A DNA stretch of 64,000 nucleotides from an uncultured Clostridia bacterium (GTDB lineage Bacteria > Bacillota > Clostridia > TANB77 > CAG-508): the NCBI GenBank assembly GCA_944388795.1, contig CALXKD010000004.1:9633-73632 (forward strand), given 5' to 3'. Made by a program: the position numbers and the translations under genes. The notes beneath the pieces were generated by a model. The model was not told the DNA's origin. It saw only the letters and a list, made by a program, of their open reading frames with translations, and made no database searches. Below, piece by piece: positions 47,624 through 50,511 of the stretch; the stretch's first letter is position 1; each line of letters begins with the position of its first letter.

Positions 47624-48475
47624 TTAGTTGTTCTCAATAAAAAAGTTTAAATAAAGTTCAGCTAACATTGTAAAAATTTCTTCTGAAATCAATGTTTTTA
47701 TCGAAATGTATGGTTCATTGTTCAATATAGTATATTGGTATTCTTCTTGATGCTCTTTTAGAAATTTTTCAAGTTCATCACGATCAAAGTATTGTGTATC
47801 AAACCTAAAAACAAGAGTTGCTTCTTTAGGACAGAAAACAGAAATTTTACATATATAATCTATTTTAGGTCCATAAGCAATTTCTTTGACCTTTTTACGG
47901 ATTATCTTTAATTTTCTTGAAATACAAGACCGTGAGTATAAAAGTATATCTCCAATTTCCTGCTGTGTTTTTCCAGAAAGCTGATATAAAAATATTACCA
48001 CATCTTTACTTTCCAAGTGATTTAAGATAACTGTTAATAAGTAAGATATGAAATCAGAATCTTCATACAGCTTAATAGAATCATGATTTGAATCAGAAAG
48101 AACATCGTATAGATTTAAATTTTCTTCTTCATTGACAGTAATTTCTAATGATGTTTCATGTGTAGAAAATTTTTTAAAACTCTCTAAGTACATTAAAATT
48201 TCATTCCGTATACAAACAGATGCATACGTAGAAAATTTAGTTTTCTTCTCAATAGAAAATGTAGAAGCTGCTTTGATTAGTCCTATTATACCGATTGAAA
48301 GTAAGTCTTCTTTCGATATGCCATTAAATTCAAAATTTTTTGCCATATATAAGACCAACCGCAAATTTTTCTTAACAAGTATATTTTGAGCTTCCTGACT
48401 GGGAAGTTGTTCTAATATATACTCTTCCTCTGTAGTGGTTAATCGTGGCGGTAATTGTAAAGTACCATCATACAT
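47624..48475 (-). CDS. SigE/SigK-like sigma-70 family factor with extra C-terminal domain (paralog 1)
   Basis: Start MYDGTLQLPPRLTTTEEEYILEQL behind AAGGGAGG. Region 2: KNLRLVLYMAKNF...LLSIGIIGLIKAASTFSIEKKTKFSTYASVCIRNEILMY. Region 4: LSGKTQQEIGDILLYSRSCISRKLKIIRKKVKE. About 75 further aa follow (ISVFCPKEATLVFRFDTQYF...EEYQYTILNNEPYISIK...FTMLAELYLNFFIENN). Confidence 0.85.
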   Translation of the reverse strand: MYDGTLQLPPRLTTTEEEYILEQLPSQEAQNILVKKNLRLVLYMAKNFEFNGISKEDLLSIGIIGLIKAASTFSIEKKTKFSTYASVCIRNEILMYLESFKKFSTHETSLEITVNEEENLNLYDVLSDSNHDSIKLYEDSDFISYLLTVILNHLESKDVVIFLYQLSGKTQQEIGDILLYSRSCISRKLKIIRKKVKEIAYGPKIDYICKISVFCPKEATLVFRFDTQYFDRDELEKFLKEHQEEYQYTILNNEPYISIKTLISEEIFTMLAELYLNFFIENN

Positions 48476-48525
48476 TTTTAAAGCCTCCCTTAACAACTAA
48501 TCCCTAAACCGACTATAATGCACAT

Positions 48526-48554
48526 ATTATATCAAAAGAAATTGATATAATCAA
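48526..48554 (-). promoter_or_regulatory. SigmaA-type promoter of sigma paralog 1
   Basis: Minus strand: TTGATT, 17-nt spacer, TGATATAAT. Confidence 0.65.
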
Positions 48555-48569
48555 TAGAAACATGATGAA

Positions 48570-48612
48570 TTAAAAAAGAGATAAGCGGAGTCTTTATAGT
48601 AAAGTCTCCGCT
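48570..48612 (-). terminator. Terminator of sigma paralog 2
   Basis: agcggagtcttt atagt aaagtctccgct: 12-bp stem with one mismatch. A T-run follows on the minus strand. Confidence 0.8.
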
Positions 48613-48622
48613 TTAGATAAGC

Positions 48623-49504
48623 TTAAAGATGGTCATGAAGTGCTATGATAATTTCTGCTAAGATTTGAAATGAATTGTTTTGGTTATTATCCATAATTAC
48701 ACGGATTGTGTTATCGTTTCCGAAAAGTATTTCATATTGATACTCCTCATATTTTTCAAGTAAAACCGTTTTTAAACAAGGAGAATAGAAGTCTGTGTAA
48801 AAAGTAATTATAATGATGTCTCCTCTTACAAGAAACGATATCCTTTTTTCAAAGTTTATGCCTACTTTATCCTGCTCTTTAAAAAACCGTTTTATTTTTT
48901 TGTGAGTAGATTTTTCTAATCTAGAAATATAACTTTGAGATAATCCCATAAGTTTACCTATGCTTTTTTGTTTTTTACCAGCCAACTTATAAAGAAGCAC
49001 GACCTGCTCTTTGTAAGTTAATCTGTTCAAAGCTATATCTAGGAGATCAGAGGCGAGATCATGATTCAAGAATGTTTCTTGAAAATCAGATGATTTCTCG
49101 TCCTTAATCACATCTTGGTATGTTAACTCGTTTCCATCGTAATCTGTATGAATAATCTCATCTAATGATGTGACATTATTGTGCTTTTTAGAAGCACGCA
49201 TGTACATTAAAATTTCATTTTCTATACAGCGGATTGCATAAGTTGAAAATTTAATTTTTTTCTCAGGATTAAAGGTATTAACAGCCTTCATTAATCCAAT
49301 TGTACCTAATGAAAAAAAGTCATCAAAATCTGTTTTATTAGTAGCAAATCTTTTTGCAATATATGCCACTAATCTTAGATTCCGGTTAACAAATATATCC
49401 GTATTTTCGTGAAAATTTAACATAAGTTGCTCTTCTTCTTCCTTTGGTAGGGGGACCGGTAATTTTATATCGGCGAATTGTACTTCATATTCTTGTTTAG
49501 CCAT
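48623..49504 (-). CDS. SigE/SigK-like sigma-70 family factor with extra C-terminal domain (paralog 2)
   Basis: RBS GAGGAGG. LPVPLPKEEEEQL..., RNLRLVAYIAKRF, FFSLGTIGLMKAVNTFNPEKKIKFSTYAIRCIENEILMYMR, LAGKKQKSIGKLMGLSQSYISRLEKSTHKKIKRF. About 80 extra aa follow (ISFLVRGDIIIITFYTDFY...EEYQYEILFGNDNTIRVIM...FQILAEIIIALHDHL). Confidence 0.88.
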   Translation of the reverse strand: MAKQEYEVQFADIKLPVPLPKEEEEQLMLNFHENTDIFVNRNLRLVAYIAKRFATNKTDFDDFFSLGTIGLMKAVNTFNPEKKIKFSTYAIRCIENEILMYMRASKKHNNVTSLDEIIHTDYDGNELTYQDVIKDEKSSDFQETFLNHDLASDLLDIALNRLTYKEQVVLLYKLAGKKQKSIGKLMGLSQSYISRLEKSTHKKIKRFFKEQDKVGINFEKRISFLVRGDIIIITFYTDFYSPCLKTVLLEKYEEYQYEILFGNDNTIRVIMDNNQNNSFQILAEIIIALHDHL

Positions 49505-49582
49505 TCTATTTAAACTCCTCCTCTTAAAAATAAGCTAAAAAAAACTAACTTGTTACATATCTGGACTTTTCCATTAAGTCAT

Positions 49583-49611
49583 ATTTTATCACGGATATAT
49601 GCATTTTTCAA
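49583..49611 (-). promoter_or_regulatory. SigmaA-type promoter of sigma paralog 2
   Basis: Minus strand: TTGAAA, 17-nt spacer, TGATAAAAT. Confidence 0.65.
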
Positions 49612-49653
49612 GTAAAAAAAGACAGCAGAGTCCTCATAAAAAGAAACTCTGCT
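49611..49653 (-). terminator. Terminator of sigma paralog 3
   Basis: gcagagt cctcataaaaagaa actctgc: stem with a T-run on the minus strand. Confidence 0.7.
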
Positions 49654-49674
49654 AAAGATTTGTAAATAAAATAG

Positions 49675-50511
49675 TTAAATTAAAGCTAAACGAGAAAGTT
49701 CAGCCAAGATGAAAAAAATATCTTGCATAAATCCTACTACTTTAATCCGGTCTTTATATGCCCTTATAAGGCAGTAGTATTTAGCTTGATTATCTCTTAG
49801 AAAAGAATAGAGCTTTTTATCGTTTTTAAAGGTTACTAAAAGAATTTCGTCACCCAGATAATCTATTGAAGTCTGGTTATCATATTCAAGCTTATTTTTA
49901 AGAAGATTCCTATTTTTGTCAAAAATCTTTTTTTGCATTCTCGAAATGTAACTCTGAGAGATTGAAACAATTTTCCCTATTTCGGACTGATTTTTACCAG
50001 ATAGAGTATAAAAAAATACGATTATCTCTTGACGGCTGTATGTATTAATTATAGTCGTCAGAAGACGGGAAATTGTGTCTGCTTTCTCACTAATCTCCGT
50101 AAATTTAATAGGACTGGGTAACATATCAATTAAGCATAACTCATTGTCTTTATCATCTGTTGAGATTACAGATTCTAAAGAAATGTTTTTCAGAAACTTT
50201 TTAGAGTATCTTAAATACATTCGTATCCCATTATGGATACAATGAGTTGCATAGGTTGCAAACTTACAATCCTTTTCTGTCGAAAATTTTCTAGTTGCTA
50301 TTACGAGTGCCATAGCACCGATGGAAAATAGATCTTCGAGATCATCTGCTGAGTAGCTATCGTATTGCTTTGAAATATATAAAACTAACCGCAGATTTCC
50401 CTCTATGAGCTTTTCTTCGGCCCATAAATCAGGTAAATGCTCTATACATCTTTTTTCTTCTTCGGCTGACAGAGCCTTTGGTAATTCTAAATGAAATCGC
50501 ATACTTCTCAT
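49675..50511 (-). CDS. SigE/SigK-like sigma-70 family factor with extra C-terminal domain (paralog 3)
   Basis: RBS AGGGAGG. LELPKALSAEEEKRCIEHL, GNLRLVLYISKQY, LFSIGAMALVIATRKFSTEKDCKFATYATHCIHNGIRMYLR, LSGKNQSEIGKIVSISQSYISRMQKKIFDK. About 70 extra aa follow (SIDYLGDEILLVTFKND...YYCLIRAYKDRIKVVGF...FFILAELSRLALI). Confidence 0.85.
   Translation of the reverse strand: MRSMRFHLELPKALSAEEEKRCIEHLPDLWAEEKLIEGNLRLVLYISKQYDSYSADDLEDLFSIGAMALVIATRKFSTEKDCKFATYATHCIHNGIRMYLRYSKKFLKNISLESVISTDDKDNELCLIDMLPSPIKFTEISEKADTISRLLTTIINTYSRQEIIVFFYTLSGKNQSEIGKIVSISQSYISRMQKKIFDKNRNLLKNKLEYDNQTSIDYLGDEILLVTFKNDKKLYSFLRDNQAKYYCLIRAYKDRIKVVGFMQDIFFILAELSRLALI

What the first reader, a model, noticed from the sequence alone, without database searches (positions are those of the whole stretch)
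47624..50511. Unassigned ~70-85 aa domain appended after region 4.2 in all three sigma paralogs; no N-terminal pro-sequence
Seen in the sequence:
- After the region 4 HTH, each paralog continues with a segment of shared secondary-structure-like pattern.
- Paralog 1: ISVFCPKEATLVFRFDTQYFDRDELEKFLKEHQEEYQYTILNNEPYISIKTLISEEIFTMLAELYL.
- Paralog 2: ISFLVRGDIIIITFYTDFYSPCLKTVLLEKYEEYQYEILFGNDNTIRVIMDNNQNNSFQILAEIII.
- Paralog 3: SIDYLGDEILLVTFKNDKKLYSFLRDNQAKYYCLIRAYKDRIKVVGFMQDIFFILAELSRL.
- Conserved features are a hydrophobic strand ending in F, an acidic helix ending EYQY/KYYC, two further strands and a terminal F.(I/M)LAE(L/I) helix.
- The N-termini begin about where mature SigE/SigK begin (LP.PL(S/T)..EE).

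Inference: regulation may have moved from N-terminal proteolysis to a C-terminal autoinhibitory, partner-docking or ligand-sensing domain. A sigma factor with a folded domain after region 4 would also clash with or replace normal activator contacts at -35, which is where Spo0A-type activators act.
Basis: partly seen in the sequence, partly recalled or inferred. Interest (0 to 1): 0.75.

Follow-up and report, generated by a model that had tools for sequence, protein, structure and literature searches.

The report
Orphan domain fused to sporulation-type sigmas
Three neighbouring sigma-factor genes of an uncultured low-GC gut bacterium each end in a real, conserved, roughly 70-residue folded domain that matches no known protein family. 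This is a rare case of a sporulation-type sigma factor carrying a probable built-in control module, although its function has not been tested.

Summary
Three tandem, separately transcribed SigE/SigK-like sigma genes (283, 293 and 278 aa) start about where mature SigE/SigK start. After an intact region 4 each continues into a 10-17 residue linker and a 64-73 residue tail.

The tail is not an artefact:
- The same ORFs occur on many independent metagenome contigs and in three other lineages.
- dN/dS is 0.17-0.25, like the sigma domains.
- It is never found free-standing.

AlphaFold2 predicts a compact β-β-α-β-β-α domain (pLDDT 84). No known family matched in Pfam, NCBIfam, PHROGs, PDB sequences or Foldseek (PDB, BFVD). 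An exhaustive HMM scan of 1.84 billion representative proteins found it only in this small sigma clade. It is not SigI-type.

The tailed sigmas are monophyletic. In three of four lineages each they sit beside a receiver-less Spo0A gene and a SpoIIID-like gene. They have sigma-A-like promoters, no pro-sequence and no anti-sigma neighbour.

I infer an on-board regulatory or partner-docking domain, analogous to the C-terminal extensions of ECF sigma factors. This mechanism is unproven. It is a new variant of a known kind, of moderate interest.

The parts
47624..48475 (-). Sigma paralog 1 (283 aa from ATG 48475; the ORF is open back to TTG 48496). SigE/K-like, with no pro-sequence.
   Evidence: ORF. 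Pfam r2 and r4. Ribosome-binding site AAGGGAGG and ATG. Called as 283 aa on other contigs.
47627..47845 (-). Tail core of paralog 1 (residues 211-283).
   Evidence: Coordinates. No family match.
48623..49504 (-). Sigma paralog 2 (293 aa). It is the most SigE-like of the three: 189.6 bits against a cut-off of 339.
   Evidence: The identical protein is on at least 23 contigs.
48626..48841 (-). Tail core of paralog 2 (residues 222-293). Predicted as a beta-beta-alpha-beta-beta-alpha domain.
   Evidence: AlphaFold2 gives pLDDT 84.4 and pTM 0.72. In the full-length model residues 222-292 have pLDDT 83-93 and the junction about 60. dN/dS is 0.25.
49675..50511 (-). Sigma paralog 3 (278 aa), slightly more SigK-like than SigE-like.
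49678..49869 (-). Tail core of paralog 3 (residues 215-278).
   Evidence: Coordinates. dN/dS is 0.17 against the sister-species ortholog.
48526..48554 (-). Sigma-A-like promoter match for paralog 1: TTGATT-17-TATAAT preceded by TG.
   Evidence: Consensus scan; sequence. This is a pattern match only.
49583..49611 (-). Sigma-A-like promoter match for paralog 2: TTGAAA-17-TAAAAT preceded by TG.
   Evidence: This is a pattern match only.
50579..50607 (-). Sigma-A-like promoter match for paralog 3: TTGAAT-17-TATAAT preceded by TG.
   Evidence: This is a pattern match only.
47590..47617 (-). Terminator-like hairpin directly after the stop codon of paralog 1. Similar hairpins followed by T runs come after paralogs 2 and 3.
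47201..47488 (-). SpoIIID-like gene. The likely start is ATG 47470, giving 89 aa.
   Evidence: Pfam SpoIIID at 1.1e-33. TIGR02844 scores 107.6 bits against a cut-off of 111.5. Sequence.
50759..51223 (+). Receiver-less Spo0A paralog 1 (154 aa): an N-terminal helix plus the Spo0A_C domain.
51445..51852 (+). Receiver-less Spo0A paralog 2 (135 aa), the most divergent of the three.
51863..52330 (+). Receiver-less Spo0A paralog 3 (155 aa). It keeps the Spo0A-type recognition helix HRVERAIRHAIEV and resembles the single copy found in the other lineages.

Best explanation
Each of the three genes encodes a working sigma-70-family factor of the SigE/SigK branch. It is made without a pro-sequence and carries a small, independently folded alpha/beta domain on a flexible linker after region 4. 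The domain was gained once, in the ancestor of a narrow clade, and has been kept by selection.

I propose that it is an on-board control module. It would hold the sigma inactive, or make it competent, until a partner protein or a ligand engages it. This would replace the pro-sequence proteolysis that controls canonical SigE and SigK. It would be analogous to the fused C-terminal extensions that stand in for anti-sigma factors in some ECF sigma groups. The different surfaces of the three tails would give each paralog its own input.

Shown here: the domain exists, it is under selection, it has no detectable relatives, it arose once, and it has a conserved gene neighbourhood.

Inferred: its regulatory role and the direction of its effect.
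For: - Real and selected. The tail has dN/dS 0.17-0.25, against 0.14-0.26 for sigma-2 and sigma-4.
- Reproducible. Identical or near-identical ORFs occur on many contigs from different samples.
- Folded. AlphaFold2 gives pLDDT 84.4 and pTM 0.72. The linker has low confidence.
- Always fused. The only 'free' copy is a miscalled fragment that is in frame with sigma-4.
- Single origin. The sigma cores of the tailed proteins form a clade in 100 of 100 neighbour-joining bootstraps against 36 SigE sequences.
- Room for a post-translational control. There is no pro-sequence. Each gene has its own near-consensus sigma-A-like promoter match and its own terminator. No anti-sigma gene lies nearby.
- Precedent. 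In ECF groups, C-terminal extensions go together with the lack of an anti-sigma factor and are needed for regulation (PMC3426412; PMC7826278).
- Paralog-specific surfaces. The invariant positions are mostly hydrophobic, and the net charge ranges from -8 to +4.
Against: - There are no functional data of any kind.
- No complex or holoenzyme model could be made, so contact of the tail with sigma-4 or sigma-2 is untested.
- The promoter assignments are consensus matches only. The scan found no more such matches in the region than in shuffled sequence (30 against 27.9).
- It is unknown whether these organisms also have canonical pro-SigE, pro-SigK and full-length Spo0A.
- The family has few members, so coevolution cannot be tested.
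- A sigma-K without a pro-sequence already exists without any tail, in C. difficile (PMC5025042). Lack of a pro-sequence therefore does not by itself call for a substitute.
Confidence: 0.4

Rival explanations
1. The tail is a docking platform for a transcription factor encoded next door. At target promoters it would bind the receiver-less Spo0A paralog, or SpoIIID, sitting just upstream of -35. It would thereby replace the contact that Spo0A normally makes with region 4 of sigma-A.
For: - A Spo0A_C-only gene lies beside the tailed sigma, transcribed divergently, in three of four lineages: the window, L008 and L013.
- A SpoIIID-like gene lies beside it in three of four: the window, L008 and L012.
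- The conserved Spo0A copy keeps the canonical recognition helix.
Against: - Copy numbers do not match. Strains carry three sigmas with either one or three Spo0A_C genes.
- L012 has no Spo0A_C gene within 1.7 kb upstream.
- 0A boxes are not enriched in the window, and none lies in an intergenic region of the locus.
- Adjacency could simply reflect a shared regulon.
Confidence: 0.2
2. The tail is an extra DNA-reading head that recognises an element upstream of -35, in the manner of the C-terminal 'double wing' domain of phage T4 MotA.
For: T4 MotA C-terminal domain chains are among the top Foldseek hits, with prob 0.77-0.97 (0.9 or more for all but one chain) and TM 0.42-0.49.
Against: - These hits have E-values of 0.05-0.13 and TM below 0.5, so they are not significant.
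- The tail core is acidic in paralogs 1 and 2 (net charge -8 and -6, pI 4.4). Its charge is not conserved across the family.
- No conserved basic residues are present.
Confidence: 0.07
3. The tail is a localisation or tethering module. It would hold the sigma at a membrane or at a developmental structure until release, taking over the membrane association that the pro-sequences of SigE and SigK provide.
For: - The pro-sequence is absent.
- The locus lies next to a sporulation gene, dipicolinate synthase subunit B. In another lineage it lies next to yabG and veg.
- The terminal helix is strongly hydrophobic.
Against: AlphaFold2 packs the terminal helix into the domain core with high confidence. 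There is no transmembrane segment and no lipid-binding signature. No partner is identified.
Confidence: 0.1
4. The extension is an annotation or assembly artefact (a lost stop codon fusing a downstream ORF), or a neutral tail with no function.
For: None was found. The only point in its favour is the very narrow distribution.
Against: - Three paralogs and orthologs in four lineages share the same architecture.
- The tail is under purifying selection.
- It is predicted as a confident fold.
- Each gene ends at a stop codon followed by a terminator hairpin.
- An open extension of this length has below about 1% probability per gene.
Confidence: 0.02

Closest known systems
ECF (group 4) sigma factors with fused C-terminal regulatory extensions: ECF41/56/294 with SnoaL-like, ECF42 with TPR, ECF238/287/288 with Cys-rich extensions, and OrbS
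   Same: A domain is fused after region 4 of the sigma. No anti-sigma gene lies alongside. In the ECF groups the extension co-segregates with one clade of sigma cores (PMC7826278; PMC3426412), and the same is seen here.
   Different: The core here is a SigE/SigK-type sporulation sigma, not an ECF sigma. The extension is an unrelated alpha/beta domain of about 70 residues with no SnoaL, TPR or cysteine motif. Its function has not been tested.
Canonical sporulation sigma factors SigE and SigK of Bacillota
   Same: They give the best profile matches. The sigma-2 domain is 59-64% identical to a solved SigE N-terminal domain. The region 4.2 motif SQSYISR is kept in paralogs 2 and 3. SpoIIID and dpaB lie in the neighbourhood.
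   Different: Scores are far below the family cut-offs. There is no pro-sequence. The genes stand alone rather than in a spoIIGA-sigE-sigG setting. They carry an extra C-terminal domain.
C. difficile sigma-K
   Same: It is a mother-cell-type sigma made without a pro-sequence (PMC5025042).
   Different: Its control is by excision of the skin element and by timing of transcription. That paper describes no C-terminal domain for it.
SigI/RsgI systems of Clostridia and Bacilli
   Same: The sigma has an unusual C-terminal domain that binds a partner (PMC6582324). The host here also encodes dockerin proteins.
   Different: SigI-C is an eight-helix domain that replaces sigma-4 and reads -35. Here sigma-4 is intact and the extra domain is beta-beta-alpha-beta-beta-alpha. 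No RsgI-like neighbour is present.
Small two-layer alpha/beta regulatory folds: ACT-like domains, type III secretion chaperones, T4 MotA C-terminal domain
   Same: These are the weak top Foldseek hits. The topology is compatible with a circularly permuted ferredoxin-like or ACT-like sandwich; this is my inference from the order of the secondary-structure elements.
   Different: No hit reaches significance. The best PDB E-value is 0.02 and TMq is at most 0.53. The best BFVD E-value is 0.013. There is no sequence similarity.

Membership tests
Sigma-70 family (functional sigma core) | Region 2 and region 4 domains are present and under selection. | tested here: met
   Sigma70_r2 hits at 1e-11 to 2e-17. 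Sigma70_r4 hits at 1e-5 to 4e-3, above the gathering score only for paralog 2. dN/dS is 0.14-0.26 for both domains.
SigE (TIGR02835 / NF006158) | The score reaches the curated equivalog cut-off. | tested here: not met
   Scores are 120-190 bits against cut-offs of 339 and 348.6.
SigE / SigK | An N-terminal pro-sequence that is removed by SpoIIGA or SpoIVFB. | tested here: not met
   The profiles align from position about 25-37 onward. LPxxL sits 7-14 residues from the N-terminus. The alignment to pro-sigma-K begins at its residue 28.
SigK (TIGR02846 / NF004471) | The score reaches the curated cut-off. | tested here: not met
   Scores are 113-168 bits against cut-offs of 252 and 298.65.
SigE | The gene lies in a spoIIGA-sigE-sigG operon. 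| tested here: not met
   The neighbours are other tailed sigmas, spoIIID-like and Spo0A_C genes. Each gene has its own promoter-like site and terminator.
SigI-type sigma | The C-terminal domain is the eight-helix SigI-C that replaces sigma-4, and the gene is paired with an RsgI anti-sigma gene. | tested here: not met
   Sigma-4 is present. The tail has four strands and two helices. No SigI or RsgI structure appears among the top 50 Foldseek PDB hits. The definition of SigI-C is taken from PMC6582324.
ECF sigma with C-terminal extension | An ECF-type core (group 4) with a SnoaL-like, TPR or Cys-rich extension. | tested here: not met
   The best profiles are SigE and SigK, not ECF subfamilies. 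No Pfam domain is found in any of nine tails, even at E up to 10.
ECF sigma with C-terminal extension (analogy only) | No anti-sigma gene lies beside the sigma gene. | tested here: met
   The neighbouring genes are identified, and none is anti-sigma-like. The ECF sigma and DUF4179 pair at 59357-61070 is a separate system.
T4 MotA C-terminal 'double wing' domain | Significant structural match (Foldseek E below 1e-3, TM above 0.5) and a basic DNA-binding face. | tested here: not met
   E-values are 0.05-0.13 and TM is 0.42-0.49. The net charge is variable and often acidic.
ACT / ferredoxin-like regulatory domains | A significant structure or profile match; ligand-binding dimer. | tested here: inconclusive
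   Only weak hits were found: aspartate kinase ACT at E about 0.1-0.3 with TM 0.43-0.50, and the GL3 ACT-like domain at E 0.17. No Pfam ACT hit. The strand order of the sheet could not be inspected.

The most novel reading that the evidence does not exclude
The locus would be a compact, self-contained developmental switch: sigma-E/K-type factors, a receiver-less and probably constitutively dimeric Spo0A, and SpoIIID. In it the sigma factors would be gated by a new C-terminal domain that senses or docks a partner, for example the truncated Spo0A, instead of by pro-sequence proteolysis. That would be a previously unknown way of controlling group-3 sporulation sigma factors. The domain would also be a new fold family that arose within one small lineage.
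Probability: 0.2. Interest if true: 0.75.

Novelty: new variant of a known kind. Interest (0 to 1): 0.55.

Why it matters
Sigma factors with built-in regulatory extensions are established for ECF (group 4) sigmas. In the searches run here I found no description of one on the SigE/SigK branch, whose activation by pro-sequence cleavage is a textbook checkpoint of endospore formation.

A clade that dropped the pro-sequence and gained a C-terminal domain would show that this checkpoint can be rewired. The clade then multiplied the gene and kept it next to a truncated Spo0A and a SpoIIID. If the mechanism holds, it would supply a small portable module for controlling sigma activity.

The interest is limited in three ways. 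The family is confined to a few uncultured gut lineages. No function is known. It is unknown whether these organisms keep the canonical sporulation factors.

Tried and rejected
- **Known domain.** Searches were Pfam at E up to 10 on nine tails, NCBIfam, PHROGs, PADLOC (which matched only the MzaA sigma core), PDB sequences and profile, and Foldseek against PDB and BFVD. None gave a significant hit.
- **Wider distribution.** The word-indexed search with the tails returned only three fragments. The exhaustive HMM search of 1.84 billion representatives gave six hits: five from this clade and one 1243-aa repeat protein. That protein scores 53 bits spread over nine stretches. I judge it to be compositional noise.
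- **Free-standing tail protein.** P0149 is a miscalled fragment, because sigma-4 lies in frame upstream of it.
- **Internal duplication of the tail.** hhalign of the two halves gives E 0.15, so this is rejected.
- **Phage or mobile origin.** There is no megablast match in the phage collection and no relatives in viral contigs. The flanking genes are housekeeping genes, and the locus is syntenic in a species only 63% identical. PHROGs does hold Spo0A_C-only, SpoIIID and sigma families, so an old phage origin is not excluded.
- **0A boxes in the locus.** They are not enriched, and none is intergenic.
- **Organism identity.** The genome-contig scan returned only an unrelated weak hit. The sample accessions occur in no paper. 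The organism remains an uncultured low-GC, Clostridia-like bacterium.
- **Full-length model in Foldseek.** Only sigma factors were returned, and none covers the tail.
- **RNA genes.** Rfam and the tRNA scan of the window found nothing.
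Full report
**What is there**

The window has 25-33% G+C and a chromosomal, housekeeping gene content: metK, ackA, guaB, pepF, glycosyltransferases and ABC transporters. 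Three ORFs lie on the minus strand at 47624-48496, 48623-49504 and 49675-50511.

Pfam finds only Sigma70_r2 and Sigma70_r4 in them. In NCBIfam the best profiles are SigE and SigK. The scores are 113-190 bits against cut-offs of 252-349. The alignments begin at profile position about 25-37 and end at residue about 199-212 of each protein.

An alignment to the solved B. subtilis pro-sigma-K places residue 10 of paralog 3 at residue 28 of that chain. From my own knowledge, pro-sigma-K is cleaved after residue 20. The proteins therefore begin about where mature SigE/SigK begin, and about 75-85 residues after region 4 are unassigned.

Paralog 1 most probably starts at ATG 48475 (283 aa). That ATG follows the ribosome-binding site AAGGGAGG, and other gene calls use it.

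**Is the tail real?**

- The exact paralog 2 protein is encoded on at least 23 contigs from different samples. Dozens of 86-97% variants have the same length.
- Orthologs of paralogs 2 and 3 in a sister species are 63% and about 56% identical and have the same architecture. So do two more distant lineages, P0037 and P0040.
- Against the sister species the tail has dN/dS 0.25 (paralog 2) and 0.17 (paralog 3). This is the same range as sigma-2 and sigma-4, at 0.14-0.26.
- Each gene ends at a stop codon followed by a hairpin and a T run.
- From base composition, an accidental open extension of 65-85 codons has about 0.3-1.2% probability per gene.
- The only apparently free-standing copy, P0149, is a miscall. 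Sigma-4 is in frame directly upstream of it.

An assembly or fusion artefact is excluded.

**Are the three tails one domain?**

They are only 25-26% identical, and pairwise BLAST is weak or silent. Profile-profile comparison of the ortholog groups links them colinearly over nearly their whole length:

| Groups compared | E-value |
|---|---|
| Paralog 1 group vs paralog 3 group | 5e-6 |
| Paralog 2 group vs P0037 | 5e-11 |
| Paralog 1 group vs paralog 2 group | 9e-4 |
| P0040 lineage vs any other group (best) | 2e-3 to 5e-3 |

The sigma cores of the twelve tailed proteins, with the tails removed, form a clade in 100 of 100 neighbour-joining bootstraps against 36 canonical SigE sequences. No SigK outgroup was available. 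A single acquisition followed by duplication is the simplest reading.

**What the tail looks like**

With a nine-sequence alignment, AlphaFold2 gives a confident model with pLDDT 84.4 and pTM 0.72. Its topology is strand-strand-helix-strand-strand-helix.

In the full-length model the last sigma-4 helix runs to residue 211. A stretch of about 10 residues with pLDDT near 60 follows, and then the same domain at pLDDT 83-93. The overall pTM is 0.50, so the model says nothing reliable about where the tail sits relative to sigma-2 and sigma-4.

The invariant positions are mostly hydrophobic core residues, namely F31, L44, F75 and A79 in the F-x-I-L-A-E helix. The net charge of the core ranges from -8 to +4 across the family. 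The surfaces have therefore diverged, and there is no conserved basic face. No internal duplication is detectable.

**Comparison with known domains**

- None of the nine tails has a convincing Pfam hit at E up to 10: four families, each matched by one tail, best E 0.024.
- There is nothing in NCBIfam or PHROGs.
- A profile search of PDB sequences finds nothing.
- Foldseek against PDB gives a best E-value of 0.02 and TMq at most 0.53. The weak top hits are a type III secretion chaperone, the T4 MotA C-terminal domain and ACT-like domains.
- Foldseek against BFVD gives a best E-value of 0.013.
Here sigma-4 is intact and the tail is mostly beta, so it is not SigI-type.
- An exhaustive HMM search of 1.84 billion representative proteins gave six hits. 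Five belong to this sigma clade. The sixth is a repeat protein scoring 53 bits over nine stretches, which I treat as compositional.

The domain is an orphan confined to a few uncultured lineages.

**Context**

Each sigma gene has its own match to a sigma-A-type promoter, TTGAxx-17-(TG)TATAAT/TAAAAT, and its own terminator. These are consensus matches. The scan as a whole found no more such sites than in shuffled sequence.

Downstream of paralog 1 lies a SpoIIID-like gene. Upstream and divergent from paralog 3 are three Spo0A paralogs that lack the receiver domain and keep an N-terminal helix. After those comes dipicolinate synthase subunit B, which scores above its curated cut-off.

The association recurs in the other lineages:

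| Locus | Genes beside the tailed sigma |
|---|---|
| Sister species (L008) | One Spo0A_C gene, two tailed sigmas, SpoIIID |
| P0037 lineage (L013) | Divergent Spo0A_C gene |
| P0040 lineage (L012) | veg and yabG on one side, SpoIIID on the other |

No anti-sigma gene lies near any of them. Strains of the window species carry one or three Spo0A_C copies with three sigmas, so the pairing is not one to one. 0A boxes are not enriched. There is no sign of a prophage.

**Interpretation**

The following points are shown:
- The tail is a real, selected and confidently predicted domain.
- It has no detectable relatives.
- It was gained once on a SigE/K-type core that lacks a pro-sequence.
- It sits in a conserved neighbourhood with truncated Spo0A and SpoIIID genes.

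The mechanism is inferred. These sigmas lack both the pro-sequence and an anti-sigma neighbour, and they may be transcribed from ordinary promoters. In ECF sigmas, fused C-terminal extensions go together with missing anti-sigma factors and control activity (PMC3426412; PMC7826278). On that basis the most likely role is an on-board regulatory module with paralog-specific input (confidence 0.4).

The rival explanations are:
- A docking role for the neighbouring Spo0A_C or SpoIIID proteins (0.2). It rests on gene adjacency only.
- A DNA-reading role (0.07). The acidic and variable charge and the non-significant MotA similarity count against it.
- A tethering role (0.1). It has no direct support.

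C. difficile sigma-K shows that a mother-cell sigma can lack a pro-sequence without any such tail (PMC5025042). The lack of a pro-sequence alone therefore does not prove that a substitute is needed.

**Verdict**

It is correct that the domain is unassigned, real and not SigI-like. The mechanistic claims remain untested.

It is a new variant of a known kind, that is, a sigma factor with a fused C-terminal extension. What is new is that the extension sits on the sporulation-type branch and is an orphan domain. Interest is 0.55. This reflects a real and unusual architecture, with a narrow distribution and no functional evidence.

Noticed in passing
window 50759-52330 (+): Three tandem Spo0A paralogs lack the receiver domain. 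Each has an N-terminal amphipathic helix followed by Spo0A_C. Only the third keeps the canonical recognition helix (HRVERAIRHAIEV, matching the family consensus SRVERAIRHAIEV apart from its first residue). Strains of the same species carry either one or three copies, and one strain has a transposase-like ORF beside the single copy (L004).
   Followed up: partly
window 52476-53054 (+) and upstream 52419-52446: Dipicolinate synthase subunit B scores above its curated cut-off, but no dpaA lies next to it. Upstream, AC-17 nt-CATATTATA resembles a sigma-K-type promoter. I recall that consensus from memory, and it is a low-information match in an AT-rich genome.
   Followed up: partly
window 47487-47530, 48526-48554, 49583-49611, 50579-50607 (-): The SpoIIID-like gene and all three sigma genes each have a very similar TG-extended -10 promoter-like site (TGATATAAT or TGATAAAAT). 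The three sigma genes have a TTGAxx -35 element and spoIIID has TTGTTT. Each gene also has its own terminator. This suggests four separate transcription units that were duplicated together with their promoters.
   Followed up: partly
window 47201-47488 (-): The SpoIIID-like gene scores just under the equivalog cut-off (107.6 against 111.5 bits). Its likely start is ATG 47470. It is present but missing from the gene tables of several sibling contigs (L002, L003, L005), where the DNA is 97-100% identical to the window across the gene.
   Followed up: yes
paralogs 1-3, regions 2.4 and 4.2 (alignment A1): Paralog 2 keeps near-canonical SigE-type recognition segments (YAIRCIENEILMY and SQSYISR). 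Paralog 1 has YASVCIRNE and SRSCISR, and paralog 3 has YATHCIHNGIRMY. The three paralogs therefore probably read different promoters.
   Followed up: no
PHROGs matches: Phage protein families exist for Spo0A_C-only proteins (phrog_24603), for SpoIIID (phrog_11726, classed as moron / host takeover) and for sigma factors (phrog_351). All three regulator types in this locus thus have phage-borne relatives, but the tail does not.
   Followed up: no
window 59357-61070 (+): An ECF-type sigma (180 aa) is followed by a 393-aa protein with weak DUF4179 and DUF5643 matches. It is probably an anti-sigma partner. This system is separate from the finding.
   Followed up: no
window 56424-59240 (+); also L008 1-1736: A large protein (938 aa) has a C-terminal type I dockerin domain and no other confident domain. 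A dockerin protein sits at the same position in the sister species. The host may build cellulosome-like assemblies.
   Followed up: no
window 45736-47142 and 55374-56294 (+): Three paralogs of the PF06541 (ABC_trans_CmpB) membrane protein family flank the regulator locus on both sides. This arrangement is conserved in the sister species.
   Followed up: no
protein P0152: The N-terminal half of this 282-aa protein resembles the P0153 lineage. Its C-terminal half is identical to the paralog 3 variant P0151. It is either a recombinant between lineages or a chimeric metagenome assembly.
   Followed up: no
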